In this document: positions 25,636 through 42,037 of the stretch, piece after piece | Layout of the letters: each line of letters starts with the position of its first letter | How positions within the stretch are numbered: position 1 is the first letter of the stretch | Source: a virus | Virus record (IMG/VR): IMGVR_UViG_3300032164_000004 | Coordinates: 12,685-76,684 of that record | Direction: 5' to 3' (one strand) | Length of the DNA: 64,000 nucleotides | Position numbers and translations under genes: made by a program | Notes under the pieces: generated by a model | The model's input: only the letters and a program-made list of their open reading frames with translations | Told to the model about the DNA's origin: nothing | Database searches by the model: none

Positions 25636-26530
25636 AGATTGTATTCTTCCTGAATCAATCAAAAAAACTTTCAGAGACATTGTAGCCAGTGGCGATCTCC
25701 CGACAAATTTTTTATTTAGTGGAGGTGCCGGCGTAGGTAAAACTACCGTTGCTCGCGCCTTAGCTAATGAATTGGGATTAGATTGTATGGTAGTTAATGC
25801 TAGTCAAGATGGTAATATCGACACTTTGAGAACTAAAATCCAACAGTTTGCTAGTACGGTTTCTCTTGTTGGCGGTAGGAAGATTCTTATTTTAGATGAA
25901 GCGGATTATTTAAATCCTAATTCTACACAACCCGCTTTACGTGGGTTTATGGAAGAATTTGCTCGCAATACGAGTTTTATTTTGACTTGTAATTTTAAGA
26001 ATCGAATCATTACTCCAATTTCTGGTTCTAGATGTTCGGTTATTGAGTTTCGTATACCTTTTGCGGATCGCCCGAAGTTGGCTGGTCAGTTTATGAAACG
26101 GGTAAAGTATATTTTAGCTCAAGAGAAGGTTGAATATACTGAAGCTGTTGTGGTCGAATTGATTAAGAAATTCTTTCCTGATTTTAGGCGAGTATTAAAT
26201 GAGTTACAGAGATATTCTGTTGGTGGTAAAATTGATGAGGGTTTGTTATCACAAATAAGTGATATAGCTCTTAGTGAATTGATTAAATCCTTAAGGGAAA
26301 AGAATTTTGATAAGGTAAGAAAGTGGGTTGCTCAAAACGTAGATAATGATCCTACTAGAATATTTAGGTCTTTGTATGATTCTTTGTATAGTGAGCTTAT
26401 TGAAGCATCTATACCACCGGCCATATTAATTTTAGCGGATTATCAATATAAAGCCGCGTTCGTGGCCGATATTGAGATAAATCTAGTGGCAGCATTGATT
26501 CAAATAATGGTGGAATGTGAATTTAAATGA
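25586..26530 (+). CDS. gp44: clamp loader large subunit
   Basis: LWVEKYRP, GGAGVGKTT, ILDEADYL. Confidence 0.95.
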   Translation: MRPQVLWVEKYRPTKIEDCILPESIKKTFRDIVASGDLPTNFLFSGGAGVGKTTVARALANELGLDCMVVNASQDGNIDTLRTKIQQFASTVSLVGGRKILILDEADYLNPNSTQPALRGFMEEFARNTSFILTCNFKNRIITPISGSRCSVIEFRIPFADRPKLAGQFMKRVKYILAQEKVEYTEAVVVELIKKFFPDFRRVLNELQRYSVGGKIDEGLLSQISDIALSELIKSLREKNFDKVRKWVAQNVDNDPTRIFRSLYDSLYSELIEASIPPAILILADYQYKAAFVADIEINLVAALIQIMVECEFK

Positions 26531-29215: not shown

Positions 29216-30130
29216 ATGATTGAACCTGTGATAGTACGTGGGCATATTGGTATTATTGTTGCCAGATTTCAAACTCCGGAATTAACTGAAGGTCATAAAG
29301 CACTTATAGAATTTGTTGAATCGAGACACGATAAAGTGGTTATCATTTTAGGATTAACAACTGGAAATCCTACAATGAAAAATCCTCTAGATTTTGCAAT
29401 TAGATCTAATATGATCCAAAAATCATATCCACTTATAATGGTTTTACCTATTAGAGATTGTAGATTGGATGTGGAGTGGTCTAAAAATTTAGATTTACTT
29501 TTAGATAGTGTATTTCCTACTGAAACTAAAGTTTTATATGGTAGTCGGGATAGTTTCATCGAAAATTATTATGGTAAGATTCCAACTGTTTCCTTAAATG
29601 AATATGGTTATAATATTTCAGCTTCCGCTTTACGAGAAGCTTCTTCACATAAGGTAGAAAATACCCCAGACTTTAGAAAAGGTATGTGTTATTCTATAGC
29701 TAATAGATTTAAAAATCCGTATCTTTGTGTTGATGTTGCCATAACACACCCCACAGATCATAGTGTGTTGTTATGTCAAAAACCAGGAGAAGAAATTTGT
29801 GGGCGGAGATTTGTTGGTGGATTTGTTGATGTTAATGATGATACATTAGAAGATGCGGTTATCAGGGAATGTAAGGAAGAAGTTGGATTAGATGTACGTG
29901 ATGTTGAATATATAAGTAATTTTACTGTTAGAGATTGGAGATATGTAGAGACTGAGGTTGGTATTAAAACTGTGTTATTTGAGGCGGAAGCTGTAAATGC
30001 ATATAATTTGGCTATGGATGATATATCTAACGCAAAATGGTTTGAAATTAATCCAATGTTATATAGTCTGATGGTACCAGAACACGAATCATTAATGAGA
30101 GCTTTTTTAGAGAGAGAATATTATGGATGA
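29216..30130 (+). CDS. natV: bifunctional NMN adenylyltransferase/Nudix hydrolase (NadM-Nudix)
   Basis: ARFQ...GH, YGSRDSF, ISAS; Nudix box GGFVD...EDAVIRECKEEVG. Confidence 0.88.
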   Translation: MIEPVIVRGHIGIIVARFQTPELTEGHKALIEFVESRHDKVVIILGLTTGNPTMKNPLDFAIRSNMIQKSYPLIMVLPIRDCRLDVEWSKNLDLLLDSVFPTETKVLYGSRDSFIENYYGKIPTVSLNEYGYNISASALREASSHKVENTPDFRKGMCYSIANRFKNPYLCVDVAITHPTDHSVLLCQKPGEEICGRRFVGGFVDVNDDTLEDAVIRECKEEVGLDVRDVEYISNFTVRDWRYVETEVGIKTVLFEAEAVNAYNLAMDDISNAKWFEINPMLYSLMVPEHESLMRAFLEREYYG

Positions 30131-31505
30131 TAATATTTGTTTGATGACTGATAGTTATAAGTTTTCACATTGGAAACAATATCCGCCAGGAACACAGACG
30201 GTTTATAGTTATTTGGAGAGTCGTGGTGGAATGTTTGATCGAACGGTTTTCTTCGGATTACAATATTATTTAAAGAAGTATTTGCAAGGTGTCGTAGTTA
30301 CTCCAGTTAAGGTAATGGAAGCCAAAACGTTTGTCCATCAACATTTAGGACAAGATACATTTAATACTGAAGGTTGGTTGTATATAGCTAATGAACTTGG
30401 TGGAAACCTTCCTGTAGAGATATGTGCTGTACCCGAAGGGTATAAGCCACAGACTAATAATGTTTTAATGACCATAAGGAATACGGATCTTAGGTGTTTT
30501 TGGTTGCCGAATTATTTAGAAACATTATTGTTGAAGGTGTGGTATCCTACAACTATTGCCACTCTTTCATATAATCTGAAAGAAATATTGGAAGAATTTG
30601 CTGGTATTTGTGGTTATGATAGTGATATAGTTAATTTTCAAATGCATGATTTTGGATATCGTGGAGTATCATCGGAAGAGAGTGCTGGATTAGGGGCTGC
30701 TGCCCATCTTTTAAATTTTAAGGGAACGGATACTGTTGCAGGTATTAGAATGTTGCAAGAGTATTATTGTTGCGATTATATGCCAGCGTTTAGTGTTCCT
30801 GCGATGGAACATTCTACCGTTACATCATGGGGACAAGATAGAGAGTTGGATGCATATGAAAATGCTATGGATTCTTATCCTACAGGTATATTATCTATAG
30901 TTGCTGATTCTTATGATATTGTAAATGCCTGTTTAAATATTTTTGGAAAAAAACTTAAGGATAAAATTTTAGAACGTGATGGTAAAATTGTTATTCGTCC
31001 TGATTCTGATGATACTATACCAACTTTGATTAAGGTTTTTAATATATTATTTGATAAGTTCGGATATATGGAAAATAGCAGAGGATATAAAGTATTACCT
31101 CCTGTTTTGGGTGTTCTCCAAGGAGATGGTATAGATTATCATATTATTAGACAAATTTTAAATGCTATGGTAGTAAATGGTATTTCCACTGAAAATATTG
31201 TATTCGGTTCGGGCGGAGCATTATTACAGAAGGTAAACAGAGATACTTTAAAGTTTGCATTTAAGGCTTCTGCCATCCAAATTGATGGTAAATGGAATGG
31301 TGTTTTTAAGACTTCGCCTGGTAAAGAATCGAAGAAAGGTATTTTATCTTTGATTAGAGATCGGAATGTATATAGGACGATGTGTTATGGAGAACCCACT
31401 ATGAGTTTTGGTAATAAGTTACGTAAAGTTTTTGAGAACGGAGAGATGTATAAAACGTTTACATATGAGGATATTAAGAATAATGTGGAAAGGTGGGATT
31501 GTTAA
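30123..31505 (+). CDS. nadV: nicotinamide phosphoribosyltransferase
   Basis: TDSYKFSH..QYP, HDFGYRG, SVPAMEHS, IRPDS, QGDG, FGSGGALLQ. Confidence 0.95.
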   Translation: MDDNICLMTDSYKFSHWKQYPPGTQTVYSYLESRGGMFDRTVFFGLQYYLKKYLQGVVVTPVKVMEAKTFVHQHLGQDTFNTEGWLYIANELGGNLPVEICAVPEGYKPQTNNVLMTIRNTDLRCFWLPNYLETLLLKVWYPTTIATLSYNLKEILEEFAGICGYDSDIVNFQMHDFGYRGVSSEESAGLGAAAHLLNFKGTDTVAGIRMLQEYYCCDYMPAFSVPAMEHSTVTSWGQDRELDAYENAMDSYPTGILSIVADSYDIVNACLNIFGKKLKDKILERDGKIVIRPDSDDTIPTLIKVFNILFDKFGYMENSRGYKVLPPVLGVLQGDGIDYHIIRQILNAMVVNGISTENIVFGSGGALLQKVNRDTLKFAFKASAIQIDGKWNGVFKTSPGKESKKGILSLIRDRNVYRTMCYGEPTMSFGNKLRKVFENGEMYKTFTYEDIKNNVERWDC

Positions 31506-32017
31506 TGATTCCTTCATGGGATAGATATTTTTTCAATATTATAGATGAGATAGCGACTAGAAGTAAAGATCCTAATACTCAAGTTGGTACGGTTATTGTT
31601 GATCTGGATAATTGTATTAGGGCAACAGGGTACAATAGTCTTCCGAGAAAGGTAAGAGATAATCCTTGTGTGGTTCCTGAGAGATTTATACGTCCTGAAA
31701 AATATTTTTGGATGGAACACGCGGAACGTAACGCGATTTATGCATCTGCAAGAATTGGTGTACCATTAAAAGGATGTAGAATTTATTTAAATGTATACCC
31801 ATGTATGGATTGTGCGAGAGCCGTGATTCAAGCCGGATTGACTGAAGTTATCATTAACCTGAATAAATATTCAAAATGGTATTCACCTCAATATACTAAG
31901 GATAATGGTAAAGTCCATATGATGTTAACGGAAGGTTTAGTAGATATTAGTTTTTGGGATGAAGCACTAGATATGCGGAGAAATTGTCTTATTCCTCCTA
32001 TATTGGATGTCAATTAA
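31505..32017 (+). CDS. cd: dCMP deaminase
   Basis: RSKDPNTQVG, HAERNA, PCMDC. Confidence 0.9.
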   Translation: MIPSWDRYFFNIIDEIATRSKDPNTQVGTVIVDLDNCIRATGYNSLPRKVRDNPCVVPERFIRPEKYFWMEHAERNAIYASARIGVPLKGCRIYLNVYPCMDCARAVIQAGLTEVIINLNKYSKWYSPQYTKDNGKVHMMLTEGLVDISFWDEALDMRRNCLIPPILDVN

Positions 32018-32020
32018 TAA

Positions 32021-32049
32021 TTGACTTTTTATGTTCGATGTAGTATAAT
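32021..32049 (+). promoter_or_regulatory. sigma70 promoter
   Basis: TTGACT-17-TATAAT. Confidence 0.7.
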
Positions 32050-32069
32050 TATTATGTGAGATAAAATAT

Positions 32070-33068
32070 ATGAGTCAATTTGAAGTTAAGGTTGTACCAA
32101 TTAAATTGGAGAAGCATCCTAATGCGGATAGCTTATCTTTGGTTCGTGTGTTTGATGCATATGTTTGTTGTGTCCGAACTGATGATTGGAAAGATAAAGC
32201 ATTAGGTGTTTTTGTTCCACCAGATTCTATTGTACCGGATACAGAAGATTACGCATTTTTGGCTGGTCATAGACGTATTAAAGCCCATAAGTTTCGTGGT
32301 ATAATGTCTCAAGGATTACTTGTTTCAGCACCCGAAGGTTCTAAAGAAGGTGATGATGTTGCCGAACGTTTGGGTATCGAACATTATGAACCTGAATTAC
32401 ATGTTTTAAAAACAATGCCGGGAAATATGGAAAGTCCGCCACCTATTACTGGTTGTGGTAGTAAATATGATATTGAGAGTTGGTTTAAATACCGTAGTAT
32501 TTTTGATTCATACCCAAATATACAAGTAAGTATTACAGAAAAGATACATGGTGCAAATGCCCGTTATACTTTTCAACAAGGTAGGATGTGGGCGGCATCT
32601 AGAGCATTTTACAGGAAGTTTAATTTAAGTGATAGTTTTTGGAGAGTAACAGAGAAAAATCCTTGGATTGAAGCTTATTGTAGATTAAGTGAAAATGCCG
32701 TAATTTATGGGGAATTATATGGTGCCGTACAAAAGTTTACGTATGGTGCTACTTCTGATAATCCTCTTTCTTTTAGGATGTTTGATATGTGGGAAAATGG
32801 GAAGTTTCAAGATTGGTCTAGAGAATTGATAGAGAGCGGATTAGTGAATGATAATCCTAATCCTAATTCTCGTATTGTTCCGATATTATATACAGGTGCT
32901 TATTCACATGATGTTGTTGAGCGATTGATGGATGGACCATCTACTATTCCTGGTGCTAAGAATATCCGAGAAGGTATTGTTATTAAACCTTTGAAAGAGA
33001 TTTGGAATGATGAAATTGGTAGGTTGATTTTAAAAGCTGTATCTCCAGTTTATTTGGAGAAATCTTGA
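32070..33068 (+). CDS. RNA ligase, DRB0094/Rnl5 family
   Basis: N-terminal OB fold HPNADSL, RGIMSQGLL; motif I TEKIHGAN; REGIVIK; ILKAVS. Confidence 0.88.
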   Translation: MSQFEVKVVPIKLEKHPNADSLSLVRVFDAYVCCVRTDDWKDKALGVFVPPDSIVPDTEDYAFLAGHRRIKAHKFRGIMSQGLLVSAPEGSKEGDDVAERLGIEHYEPELHVLKTMPGNMESPPPITGCGSKYDIESWFKYRSIFDSYPNIQVSITEKIHGANARYTFQQGRMWAASRAFYRKFNLSDSFWRVTEKNPWIEAYCRLSENAVIYGELYGAVQKFTYGATSDNPLSFRMFDMWENGKFQDWSRELIESGLVNDNPNPNSRIVPILYTGAYSHDVVERLMDGPSTIPGAKNIREGIVIKPLKEIWNDEIGRLILKAVSPVYLEKS

Positions 33069-33479: not shown

Positions 33480-33576
33480 GGAGAGGTGGTAGAGTCCGGT
33501 TTATTACACAGGTCCTGAAAACCTGAGGCCGAGTGAACAACGAGGCCCGTGGGTCCGAATCCCACCCTCTCCGCCA
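33480..33576 (+). tRNA. tRNA-Ser(UGA)
   Basis: CAGGT-CCTGAAA-ACCTG, long variable arm, CCA. Confidence 0.88.
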
Positions 33577-33583
33577 AATAGTT

Positions 33584-33751
33584 ATGAAGATTATTTTTCC
33601 GAAAAAAGACGAGATTTTAGTTTGTAAAAAATGTAAAACTGCGGTTGATCTTGCAGGTGCATTTAGTGAAGATGGTGCGATTGACGATTATTGGTGTGAA
33701 GTGTGTATAGATTATGTTGATGTGAAAATTGCTCCTATAACTCAGAATTAA
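33584..33751 (+). CDS. small Zn-ribbon protein
   Basis: CKKC...CEVC; ATG after the tRNA. Confidence 0.45.
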   Translation: MKIIFPKKDEILVCKKCKTAVDLAGAFSEDGAIDDYWCEVCIDYVDVKIAPITQN

Positions 33752-33780: not shown

Positions 33781-33856
33781 GTCCCTGTATCTCAACAGAC
33801 TTCTAATCTGTAGTCGAGTAGTTGGATCAACGGGAGTTCGAATCTCTCCAGGGATA
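33781..33856 (+). ncRNA. atypical tRNA-Arg(UCU)-like RNA lacking a D-arm
   Basis: Acceptor GTCCCTG/CAGGGAT; anticodon arm ACAGA-CTTCTAA-TCTGT only 7 nt after the acceptor; 20-nt insert before T-arm GGGAG-TTCGAAT-CTCTC. Confidence 0.7.
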
Positions 33857-33860
33857 CATT

Positions 33861-33936
33861 AGGGTCATAGTTTAATTGGCAAAACCTTGGACTTTGAATC
33901 CAAAGACTCTAGGTTCGAAACCTAGTGACCCTACCA
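33861..33936 (+). tRNA. tRNA-Gln(UUG)
   Basis: TTGGA-CTTTGAA-TCCAA, CCA. Confidence 0.9.
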
Positions 33937-41694: not shown

Positions 41695-42037
41695 ACTAAC
41701 GTGGAATTTTGATATTTTTATAGATGGTGAAATTGGTTGCTCTTATATTTCCGATAATGATAGTCATTTAATTTTTTACGGTGATGAAGTAATAACAAAA
41801 AGTAAAACCATCACTATAATTTTTGATTATCCTTTAGATGGTAAATTTCCAATGGTTTTTAAATCTAGAAATGGATTTACCAGAGCTAAATTTTATGAGT
41901 GTGTTTATAGAGGTTATCAAAAAATATATAAATCCGAAGATAAGTATGGTGTTTGGGGTCATTGTATTGGTGATTTGTCTCTTGGTTGCGCTACAGAAAT
42001 TAGTCCTGGTAAATTTGAACTAGGTATAGATTCTTAA
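41675..42037 (+). CDS. hypothetical protein
   Basis: FDYPL, YGVWGHCIGDL motifs; coupled to Ro60. Confidence 0.55.
   Translation: MKKNGIKLTWNFDIFIDGEIGCSYISDNDSHLIFYGDEVITKSKTITIIFDYPLDGKFPMVFKSRNGFTRAKFYECVYRGYQKIYKSEDKYGVWGHCIGDLSLGCATEISPGKFELGIDS

What the first reader, a model, noticed from the sequence alone, without database searches (positions are those of the whole stretch)
33781..33856. tRNA-Arg(UCU)-like RNA with the D-arm missing and a D-loop-like segment 3' of the anticodon arm
Seen: intact acceptor stem, anticodon arm (CT-TCT-AA) and T-arm, but only 7 nt (TATCTCA) where the D-arm should be. A 20-nt insert AGTCGAGTAGTTGGATCAAC containing a D-loop-like AGTTGGA follows the anticodon arm, and ATC(T)CA can pair with TGGAT in that insert. 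No canonical Arg tRNA occurs in the window, although most other amino acids have one. Inference: a topologically rewired tRNA that may rebuild the elbow differently (nuclease-resistant tRNA or decoy) rather than a decayed pseudogene.
Basis: partly seen in the sequence, partly recalled or inferred. Interest (0 to 1): 0.72.

Follow-up and report, generated by a model that had tools for sequence, protein, structure and literature searches.

The report
Rewired phage arginine tRNA gene
This 76-base phage gene is very probably a working arginine tRNA (reading AGA/AGG) whose D-arm is split around the anticodon arm instead of forming its own hairpin, a non-cloverleaf layout that hundreds of phages (Felix O1 among them) share, that gene finders miss, and that I found described in no paper.

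Summary
Window 33781-33856 (+) has an intact acceptor stem, UCU anticodon arm and T-arm. Seven bases stand where the D-arm should be, and a 20-base insert follows the anticodon arm. ARAGORN misses it; Rfam's tRNA model finds it only by deleting the D-arm.

It is not a decayed gene. I collected 90 distinct relatives from phage contigs, and BLAST found more in 269 GenBank phage records (Felix O1-like, phi92-like, T5-like Sugarland, jumbo coliphages), almost never annotated.

In all of them, 2-3 bases of the 5' linker pair with the bases just before a D-loop-like UA-R-Y-U-G-G-A in the insert. These pairs covary (22 stem versions). A 15:48-like pair covaries too.

So the chain order is changed: the D-stem encloses the anticodon arm and the D-loop follows it, probably keeping the L-shape.

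All 90 carry Arg anticodons and A at the '20' place. Two Ile(UAU) members have U there. Canonical Arg tRNAs in the same clusters almost always carry other anticodons. AGA/AGG make up 55% of this phage's Arg codons.

Expression, charging and the 3D fold are untested. This scan found the same family before on other DNA. Why it is rewired is unknown.

The parts
33781..33787 (+). Acceptor stem, 5' strand (GTCCCTG)
   Evidence: Pairs 7/7 with 33849-33855 (G1-U72 is a wobble pair). All 7 pairs covary in the family and 98.7% of cells are paired.
33788..33790 (+). U8-like T, an A (invariant TA), then a T that faces T33819
   Evidence: T8 and A9 are invariant in the 16-sequence seed alignment and in the 90 rows printed. 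The third base faces an invariant T and is a standard pair in only 17% of members.
33791..33793 (+). D-like stem, strand lying 5' of the anticodon arm (CTC)
   Evidence: Pairs with GAG at 33816-18. The three pairs are 100%, 99% and 62% paired across 90 relatives and all three covary, giving 22 stem versions. RNAalifold predicted this helix de novo.
33794..33794 (+). Single unpaired base between the D-like stem and the anticodon stem (position-26-like A)
   Evidence: The linker is 7 nt in 87 of 90 members and 8 nt in 3, and the alignment has one column here.
33795..33811 (+). Anticodon arm: 5-bp stem ACAGA/TCTGT and loop CTTCTAA, anticodon TCT at 33802-33804 (Arg, reads AGA/AGG)
   Evidence: All 5 stem pairs covary and 94% of cells are paired. 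The loop has U33 and A37. All 90 members carry Arg anticodons.
33812..33815 (+). Connector AGTC (44/45-like plus two extra bases)
   Evidence: This segment is 3-5 nt in 82 of 90 members and usually starts with AG. Its role in base triples is my inference.
33816..33818 (+). D-like stem, strand lying 3' of the anticodon arm (GAG)
   Evidence: Partner of 33791-93.
33819..33826 (+). D-loop-like TAGTTGGA: A14-like 33820, G15-like 33821, G18 G19-like 33824-25, A20-like 33826
   Evidence: The motif TA-R-(N1-2)-GGA occurs in every member. That includes members found by a pattern that did not constrain the insert or by the model alone. A at the '20' place is the known ArgRS identity base (my knowledge). 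The two Ile(UAU) members have T there.
33827..33831 (+). Connector TCAAC ending in C48-like 33831
   Evidence: The last base covaries with the R15-like base: A-U in 84 members and G-C in 4, the window being G-C. The base before it is A in 89 of 90.
33832..33848 (+). T-arm: stem GGGAG/CTCTC and loop TTCGAAT
   Evidence: Canonical T-loop. The stem is 99.8% paired and 3 of its 5 pairs covary.
33849..33856 (+). Acceptor stem 3' strand (CAGGGAT) and discriminator A; no encoded CCA
   Evidence: Most relatives encode CCA; this copy is followed by CATT and then tRNA-Gln at 33861.

Best explanation
The element is a functional phage tRNA-Arg(UCU) that decodes AGA/AGG, with a non-cloverleaf chain order. 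[quoted passage not shown] The D-arm hairpin is replaced by a helix made of two distant strands. One strand (CTC) lies directly 5' of the anticodon arm. The other (GAG) lies 3' of it and runs straight into a D-loop-like segment UAGUUGGA. The anticodon arm is therefore nested inside the D-like stem.

In canonical numbering the block 10-21 (one D-stem strand plus the D-loop) has moved behind the block 22-45. In an ordinary tRNA the D-stem already stacks on the anticodon stem. Residues 9/22, 45/10 and 21/46-48 already lie next to each other in the core. So the three new chain junctions need only short linkers, and the L-shape can be kept: U8 with A14, R15 with Y48, and G18 G19 with the T-loop. 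A at the '20' place stays exposed for arginyl-tRNA synthetase.

Shown: the layout, its conservation, the covarying helix and the covarying 15:48-like pair, the Arg-only anticodons with A20, and the non-redundancy with canonical tRNA-Arg genes. Inferred: the 3D fold, charging with arginine, and use on the ribosome.
For: (1) The Rfam tRNA model matches above its gathering score with only the D-arm missing.
(2) The leave-window-out model R2 gives 78.0 bits (E 7.5e-20) and flags no non-standard pair.
(3) I found 90 distinct relatives scoring 51 bits or more in 81 loci. Four divergent relatives score 41-44 bits; every other tRNA scores about 35 bits or less.
(4) The linker-insert helix is paired in 100%, 99% and 62% of cells. 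All three pairs change on both sides (CG, GC, AU, UA), giving 22 stem versions. RNAalifold predicts the same helix unprompted. Slid controls fall to 34-47% paired.
(5) The 15:48-like pair is A-U in 84 members and G-C in 4, including the window.
(6) All 90 anticodons are Arg: about 38 UCU, 34 ACG, 10 UCG, 6 CCU and 1 GCG. Single contigs carry up to four rewired isoacceptors.
(7) In 35 loci that also hold canonical tRNA-Arg genes, the anticodons coincide in only 3. Permutation gives 9.9 +/- 2.4 (P 0.0024). In Felix O1-like clusters the rewired gene is the only UCU tRNA.
(8) The window's phage has 33% G+C and AGA plus AGG make up 55% of its Arg codons. No other tRNA-Arg lies in the contig.
(9) The two rewired Ile(UAU) members have U where the Arg members have A20.
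(10) T5's canonical tRNA-Arg(UCU) shares the acceptor stem and T-arm almost base for base with the rewired copy in L008. So the two forms are homologous.
Against: There are no data on expression, processing, aminoacylation or decoding for any member. The 3D fold was not modelled. The single-sequence MFE of the window copy is a different fold, 3 kcal/mol better than the consensus structure (-20.6 against -17.6), though unmodified tRNA sequences often behave so. The D-like stem is short: 3 bp here, and only 2 sure pairs in 38% of members. This copy lacks an encoded CCA and starts with a G-U pair. Most members were collected with patterns that demanded the T-loop and TGGA, so conservation of those two motifs is partly by construction. 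Related sequences inflate the cell counts of covariation.
Confidence: 0.8

Rival explanations
1. Decayed tRNA-Arg pseudogene: a former cloverleaf gene that lost its D-arm by deletion and gained junk in the variable region.
For: ARAGORN does not call it. The Rfam score is the lowest of the window's 17 tRNA matches. This copy encodes no CCA.
Against: The same layout recurs in 90 distinct sequences with compensatory changes in every helix, including the new one. The copy matches a model built without it at 78 bits with no broken pair. It is the only tRNA-Arg in a contig rich in AGA codons.
Confidence: 0.02
2. A stable tRNA-like RNA that is not used in translation. For example, it could be a decoy that soaks up a host tRNA nuclease or modification enzyme, or a regulator.
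For: The architecture is odd and restricted to phages: about 75 of 109 distinct viral hits have it, against about 5 of 120 hits in cellular genomes, and 0 of 151 sampled Gammaproteobacteria. The window also encodes an RNA ligase. T5 is annotated with tRNA-like stable RNAs of unknown function.
Against: A decoy has no need to keep a 7-bp acceptor stem with CCA, a full anticodon loop, A20 and a full set of Arg isoacceptors. It has no reason to avoid the anticodons of the canonical tRNA-Arg genes next to it. The Ile members switching A20 to U fits charging by the cognate synthetase.
Confidence: 0.08
3. A working tRNA-Arg of the mitochondrial D-armless kind. The linker-insert pairs merely lengthen the anticodon stem, and the rest of the insert is a floppy loop with no D-loop/T-loop elbow. 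The shape would be a flexible boomerang or Y and not an L.
For: [quoted passage not shown] The nested helix here is formally similar. No 3D evidence is available.
Against: Unlike the mitochondrial case, the T-loop is fully canonical: TTCGAAT in 82 of 90 members. UA-R-..-GG-A is kept at a fixed distance after the helix, and the R covaries with the last base before the T-stem as a 15:48 pair would. These features have no reason to persist without a core.
Confidence: 0.08
4. One reading: the linker ATC(T)CA pairs with TGGAT of the insert, so the D-loop-like bases are buried in a helix.
For: The complementarity exists in the window copy. The single-sequence MFE uses AUC:GAU plus CAAC:GUUG.
Against: Across 16 gaplessly aligned relatives this helix is paired in 66% of cells and none of its 5 pairs shows a change on both sides. 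The MFE fold also destroys the anticodon stem, which covaries.
Confidence: 0.02

Closest known systems
Canonical class I bacterial and phage tRNA-Arg (Rfam RF00005), e.g. phage T5 tRNA-Arg(UCU), AY543070 40773-40847
   Same: Both have a 7-bp acceptor stem, the anticodon loop CUUCUAA, the T-arm with loop TTCGAAT, U8, a D-loop-type A-R-Y-Y-G-G-A with A20, and a discriminator followed by CCA in most members. T5's acceptor stem and T-arm are nearly identical to those of the rewired copy in L008.
   Different: There is no D hairpin. One D-stem strand lies before the anticodon arm. The other strand and the D-loop lie after it, where the 4-5 nt variable loop should be. The anticodon arm is nested inside the D-like stem, making a three-way instead of a four-way junction.
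D-armless mitochondrial tRNA-Ser(AGY/GCU) (PMC9427863)
   Same: The D-arm hairpin is absent. Bases of the 5' connector pair with bases 3' of the anticodon arm, formally extending the anticodon stem.
   Different: The mitochondrial tRNA has a remodelled T-loop and no tertiary core or elbow. The phage tRNA keeps a canonical T-loop, a GG-containing D-loop-like segment and a covarying 15:48-like pair. It also lives in a bacterial cytoplasm and depends on standard bacterial enzymes.
Circularly permuted tRNA genes of red and green algae and some archaea (PMC3978253, PMC3218864)
   Same: Segments of a tRNA occur in a non-standard order in the gene.
   Different: In those genes the 3' half precedes the 5' half, and processing through a circular intermediate restores a normal cloverleaf. 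Here the ends are in their normal places, only an internal block is moved, and no known processing could restore the normal order. The mature RNA itself would be rewired.
Class II tRNAs and allo-tRNAs with long variable arms (PMC5389517)
   Same: Both have a long segment between the anticodon arm and the T-arm. Both include unusual tRNAs in phage tRNA clusters.
   Different: Those keep a D-arm, and their extra segment folds on itself as a hairpin. Here the D-arm is absent and the extra segment pairs with the 5' linker. RNAalifold predicts no hairpin inside the insert.

Membership tests
tRNA (Rfam RF00005) | Match to the covariance model above the gathering score | tested here: met
   38.6 bits against a gathering score of 29, E 1.7e-6, model positions 1-71.
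tRNA (Rfam RF00005) | 7-bp acceptor stem, 5-bp anticodon stem with a 7-nt loop (U33, purine 37), 5-bp T-stem with a TTCRANY-type loop | tested here: met
   Read directly from the sequence. All three helices covary in the family.
tRNA (Rfam RF00005) | D-arm hairpin between position 9 and position 26 (the cloverleaf's fourth arm) | tested here: not met
   Only 5 nt lie between A9 and the anticodon stem. The Rfam alignment deletes 15 D-arm positions.
tRNA (Rfam RF00005) | Aminoacylation and decoding on the ribosome | not testable with these tools
   Only indirect evidence: Arg anticodons with A20, anticodons complementary to those of canonical neighbours, and codon demand.
Rewired (D-strand-swapped) phage tRNA-Arg family defined here (models R1, R2) | Match to a model built without the window | tested here: met
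   R2 gives 78.0 bits, E 7.5e-20, full length 1-76, no non-standard pair.
Rewired (D-strand-swapped) phage tRNA-Arg family defined here (models R1, R2) | 7-nt linker whose bases 4-6 pair with the 3 nt just 5' of a UA-R-Y-U-G-G-A motif in the insert | tested here: met
   CTC at 33791-93 pairs with GAG at 33816-18, all three Watson-Crick, followed by TAGTTGGA.
Rewired (D-strand-swapped) phage tRNA-Arg family defined here (models R1, R2) | The R15-like base is complementary to the last base before the T-stem | tested here: met
   G33821 with C33831. The family has A-U in 84 members and G-C in 4.
Rewired (D-strand-swapped) phage tRNA-Arg family defined here (models R1, R2) | Arg anticodon together with A at the '20' place | tested here: met
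   TCT at 33802-04 and A33826. All 90 members have Arg anticodons.
Mitochondrial-type D-armless tRNA | Loss of the D-loop/T-loop elbow elements (non-canonical T-loop, no GG partner) | tested here: not met
   The T-loop TTCGAAT and the GG of TTGGA are both present and conserved.
Circularly permuted tRNA gene | The 3' half lies upstream of the 5' half, so the acceptor ends lie inside the gene | tested here: not met
   The acceptor strands are at the two ends of the element and pair 7/7.
Class II tRNA (long variable arm) | A D-arm is present and the variable segment forms its own conserved hairpin | tested here: not met
   There is no D-arm. RNAalifold finds no helix within columns 39-51. A GUUG/CAAC hairpin is possible in this copy but is not conserved in the alignments.

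The most novel reading that the evidence does not exclude
The rewiring is adaptive and not a frozen accident. By removing the D hairpin while keeping the L-shape, these phage tRNAs would escape host tRNA-directed nucleases, toxins or modification checkpoints that read the canonical D-arm or core. They would still be charged by host ArgRS (or IleRS) and used by the ribosome. That would make chain topology a new axis of the phage-host tRNA arms race, next to the anticodon-loop mutations already described (PMC10264068).
Probability: 0.2. Interest if true: 0.9.

Novelty: new variant of a known kind. Interest (0 to 1): 0.8.

Why it matters
The cloverleaf is treated as universal outside mitochondria. 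[quoted passage not shown]

If these RNAs work as tRNAs in a bacterial cytoplasm, then bacterial RNase P, the CCA-adding enzyme, ArgRS, EF-Tu and the ribosome all accept a tRNA whose core is threaded differently. That gives a natural experiment on which features of the tRNA core are topology and which are shape. It may also give a chassis for engineered tRNAs.

There is a practical side. The gene is unannotated in reference genomes of classic phages. In Felix O1 a called HNH gene start runs into it, and Sugarland lacks it entirely. Phage tRNA inventories and codon-usage studies therefore under-count Arg decoders.

The members in coliphages and Salmonella phages make the question directly testable at the bench.

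Tried and rejected
- Megablast and blastn of the neighbourhood against GenBank phages gave no close relative of this phage; only single tRNAs matched.
- An exact 24-nt word of the element found nothing in viral contigs.
- blastn of the element alone gave one weak hit. Relatives had to be found by degenerate patterns and by the covariance model.
- A self-contained hairpin in the insert (GUUG-GAU-CAAC) is possible here and in a few close relatives, but it is not conserved in the alignments. The only conserved pair in it is the 15:48-like one.
- The single-sequence MFE does not reproduce the consensus fold.
- 'Arg only' turned out to be partly an artefact of my TGGA-containing pattern. A scan on UAU loops found two rewired tRNA-Ile genes.
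- Nine literature searches found no description. Topics were: D-arm, D-armless, non-cloverleaf, permuted or rearranged tRNA, allo-tRNA, phage tRNA, Felix O1. The reviews PMC7609411 and PMC5389517 do not mention it.
- The context of the copy in an Aminobacter isolate genome (L184) stayed unresolved. Two neighbouring ORFs hit PHROGs of unknown function.
- A first attempt at a class-wide genome search failed for want of a genome handle and was repeated.

Full report
**What is there.** Window 33781-33856 (+) lies in the tRNA cluster of an AT-rich (33% G+C) uncultured phage. The contig is an IMG/VR record of 76.7 kb, estimated 42% complete. Genes for nicotinamide phosphoribosyltransferase, a cytidylyltransferase/Nudix protein and an RNA ligase lie just upstream. 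The element starts 29 nt after a small ORF and ends 4 nt before tRNA-Gln.

The sequence reads as follows: acceptor stem 7 bp; TA; five further linker bases; a perfect 5-bp anticodon stem with loop CTTCTAA; 20 nt; T-arm with loop TTCGAAT; acceptor strand; discriminator A; no CCA.

ARAGORN finds 16 tRNAs in the window, none for Arg, and skips this element. Rfam's tRNA model reaches 38.6 bits (gathering score 29) by deleting the D-arm and inserting 17 nt in the variable region.

**It is one of a large family.** A pattern that fixed only the UCU anticodon loop and the T-loop, with an over-long gap between them, gave 27 viral loci. Eight distinct sequences among them have exactly the window's layout.

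About 75 of the 109 distinct sequences have the layout. The same pattern on one genome per prokaryotic species also hit its limit. There only about 5 of 120 hits were of this kind, on MAG contigs and one Aminobacter isolate contig. The rest were ordinary tRNA-Ser genes or chance matches.

A covariance model (R1) built from 16 gaplessly aligned members separates the family cleanly. It finds 90 distinct hits of 51 bits or more in 81 loci and four divergent members at 41-44 bits. All ordinary tRNAs in the same 0.8 Mb score about 35 bits or less. A second model built without the window (R2) scores the window copy at 78.0 bits, E 7.5e-20. None of 151 sampled Gammaproteobacteria genomes matched at E 1e-6, while two positive-control genomes did.

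**Cultured phages carry it.** BLAST with one UCU-type member hits 269 GenBank phage records. These include Felix O1-like phages, phi92-like Justusliebigvirus, the T5-like Klebsiella phage Sugarland, KB57/Mydo-like phages and jumbo coliphages of 320-384 kb. An ACG-type member hits Streptomyces and Microbacterium phages and Xanthomonas phage XacN1.

In the rows shown, the feature under the match is 'none', 'tRNA-OTHER', 'tRNA', a protein CDS, or a wrong isotype (tRNA-Phe, tRNA-Val). It is never tRNA-Arg. Felix O1 itself has the gene at 25951-26029, unannotated, and the called start of an HNH gene (26003) lies inside it. Sugarland has it at 41900-41978. T5 has none.

**The structure.** On the gapless 16-sequence alignment, and again on the 90-sequence model alignment, three bases of the 5' linker pair with the three bases just before an invariant UA of the insert. 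The pairs are standard in 100%, 99% and 62% of the 90 sequences. Each occurs as CG, GC, AU and UA, and there are 22 different stem versions. In the window the helix is CTC/GAG, all Watson-Crick.

RNAalifold, given no structure, predicts exactly this helix together with the three classical ones. Sliding the 3' partners by 1-3 columns drops pairing from 93% to 34-47%.

After the helix comes U-A-R-Y-U-G-G-A. The R is complementary to the last base before the T-stem: A-U in 84 members, G-C in 4 including the window. That is the behaviour of the 15:48 Levitt pair.

**The fold, as inference.** The rest of this reading rests on the classical tRNA-Phe structure and is my inference, not a tool result. 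The strand before the anticodon arm takes the place of 22-25 and runs on through a 26-like base into the anticodon stem. The strand after it takes the place of 10-13 and runs on into A14, R15, G18, G19 and A20. The block 10-21 has thus been moved behind block 22-45.

The three new junctions (9 to 22, 45 to 10, 21 to 46-48) join residues that are already neighbours in the canonical core through the triples 9-12-23, 45-10-25 and 8-14-21. So an L-shape with a normal elbow is geometrically plausible. I could not model it.

**Is it used as a tRNA?** All evidence is indirect but consistent.
- All 90 members carry Arg anticodons: about 38 UCU, 34 ACG, 10 UCG, 6 CCU and 1 GCG.
- Single contigs hold up to four rewired isoacceptors, for example L094 with UCG, ACG, UCU and CCU.
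- 52 of the 81 loci hold five or more ordinary tRNA genes around the rewired one.
- Where canonical tRNA-Arg genes lie in the same locus, they share an anticodon with the rewired gene in 3 of 35 loci. Permutation gives 9.9 +/- 2.4, P 0.0024. Relatedness of loci is not corrected for.
- In Felix O1-like clusters the canonical Arg gene is ACG and the rewired one supplies UCU.
- In the window's phage, AGA is the commonest Arg codon (39%) and AGA plus AGG make up 55%. This is the only tRNA-Arg in the contig.
- The base after the GG is A in the Arg members. A20 is the major ArgRS identity element in E. coli (my knowledge; McClain and Foss 1988, Tamura et al. 1992).

My TGGA pattern could have forced that last result, so I scanned for UAU loops with an over-long gap. 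Among roughly 90 distinct hits, two are rewired tRNA-Ile(UAU) genes (R1 about 60 bits; ARAGORN misses them). Both have U at that place. The architecture is therefore not strictly Arg-specific, and the identity base changes with the anticodon, as expected for charged tRNAs.

**Origin.** T5's canonical tRNA-Arg(UCU) has the same 5' acceptor strand, the same 17-nt T-arm and a 3' acceptor strand differing by one base from the rewired copy in L008. It also resembles the Sugarland copy. In both T5 and Sugarland the gene sits a few kb downstream of the metallopeptidase gene, at the edge of the tRNA region. Canonical and rewired forms are thus homologous and have replaced each other within one phage family. 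The direction and mechanism are unknown.

**Weak points.**
- No expression, charging or structural data exist for any member.
- The new helix is short.
- The window copy's own MFE fold differs from the consensus and is 3 kcal/mol better.
- This copy lacks an encoded CCA, as do some other tRNAs of such phages. It would need 3' trimming and CCA addition (inference).
- Motif conservation is partly by ascertainment. The members found without those constraints show the same motifs.

**Why it is rewired.** I cannot tell. A neutral frozen accident spreading by horizontal transfer explains the data. So does selection to evade host factors that read the D-arm; I give that about 0.2. DNA-level selection by the homing endonucleases that often abut the gene is a third possibility.

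**Prior knowledge.** Nine full-text searches and two reviews of non-canonical tRNAs gave no description. The nearest published analogue is the extended anticodon stem of the D-armless human mt-tRNA-Ser(GCU), which lacks any core (PMC9427863).

Earlier follow-up reports of this same scan reached the same reading on other genomes. Those are AI notes, not independent evidence. I re-derived the structure here and tested two of their leads, both of which held: the Ile members and Felix O1.

**Verdict.** This is a real, conserved, very probably functional tRNA-Arg(UCU) with a non-cloverleaf chain order. It is a new variant of a known kind, of high interest, and directly testable in coliphages.

Noticed in passing
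L270:2654-2743(-), L266:3570-3664(+), L288:5527-5618(-) and about 80 further distinct sequences in L264-L380: Phage tRNA-Ile(UAU) genes of 90-95 nt with a D-arm plus a long, hairpin-forming variable arm (for example CCGC-CAGATTA-GCGG). They are class-II-like Ile tRNAs. ARAGORN calls them tRNA-Ile(tat).
   Followed up: partly
L309:8349-8424(+), L274:4144-4220(+): Two rewired (D-strand-swapped) tRNAs with anticodon UAU (Ile) and U instead of A at the '20' place. R1 scores them at about 60 bits and ARAGORN misses them. L309 also holds a canonical tRNA-Ile(GAU).
   Followed up: partly
L052:12711-12785(+), L184:6346-6420(+), L071:5533-5614(+): Rewired Arg-type members whose anticodon loops appear to have 8 nt (TCTTCTAC, ACTTCTAG, TGTTCTAA) on a 4-5 bp stem.
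   Followed up: no
L078:2260-2346(+): A rewired member with a duplicated anticodon loop (CTTCGAAACTTTCGAA), 87 nt. It is either damaged or carries a short insertion.
   Followed up: no
L208:2562-2649(-), L359:3937-4027(+): tRNA-Ile(UAU)-like genes with a normal D-arm and, in addition, a D-loop-like GATAATTGG in a 21-nt variable region. They may be an intermediate between the cloverleaf and the rewired form.
   Followed up: no
L009:5421-5508, L011:5405-5491, L020:4580-4671(-), L022:2155-2236(-): tRNAs with anticodon UCU, a normal D-arm and a long variable arm (82-92 nt) in viral contigs. Either Arg tRNAs of class II form or Ser/Leu-type bodies with an Arg anticodon.
   Followed up: no
Felix O1 NC_005282 25951-26029 (L385:2452-2530); Sugarland NC_042093 41900-41978 (L263:3001-3079): The rewired tRNA is unannotated in both reference genomes. 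In Felix O1 the HNH endonuclease CDS Felix01p088 is called from 26003, inside the tRNA. In Sugarland an HNH gene starts 12 nt after it.
   Followed up: partly
window 33857-33936: tRNA-Gln(UUG) starts 4 nt after the rewired tRNA's discriminator, so the two are probably cut from one precursor. The Gln gene encodes CCA and the Arg gene does not.
   Followed up: no
window 33533-33751 (+): A 72-aa ORF directly upstream with two Cys-x-x-Cys pairs (zinc-ribbon-like). It has no PHROG match.
   Followed up: no
window 29216-33068 (+): The genes upstream of the tRNA cluster match PHROGs for a cytidylyltransferase/Nudix fusion, nicotinamide phosphoribosyltransferase and an RNA ligase. That suggests NAD salvage and RNA repair next to the tRNAs.
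   Followed up: partly
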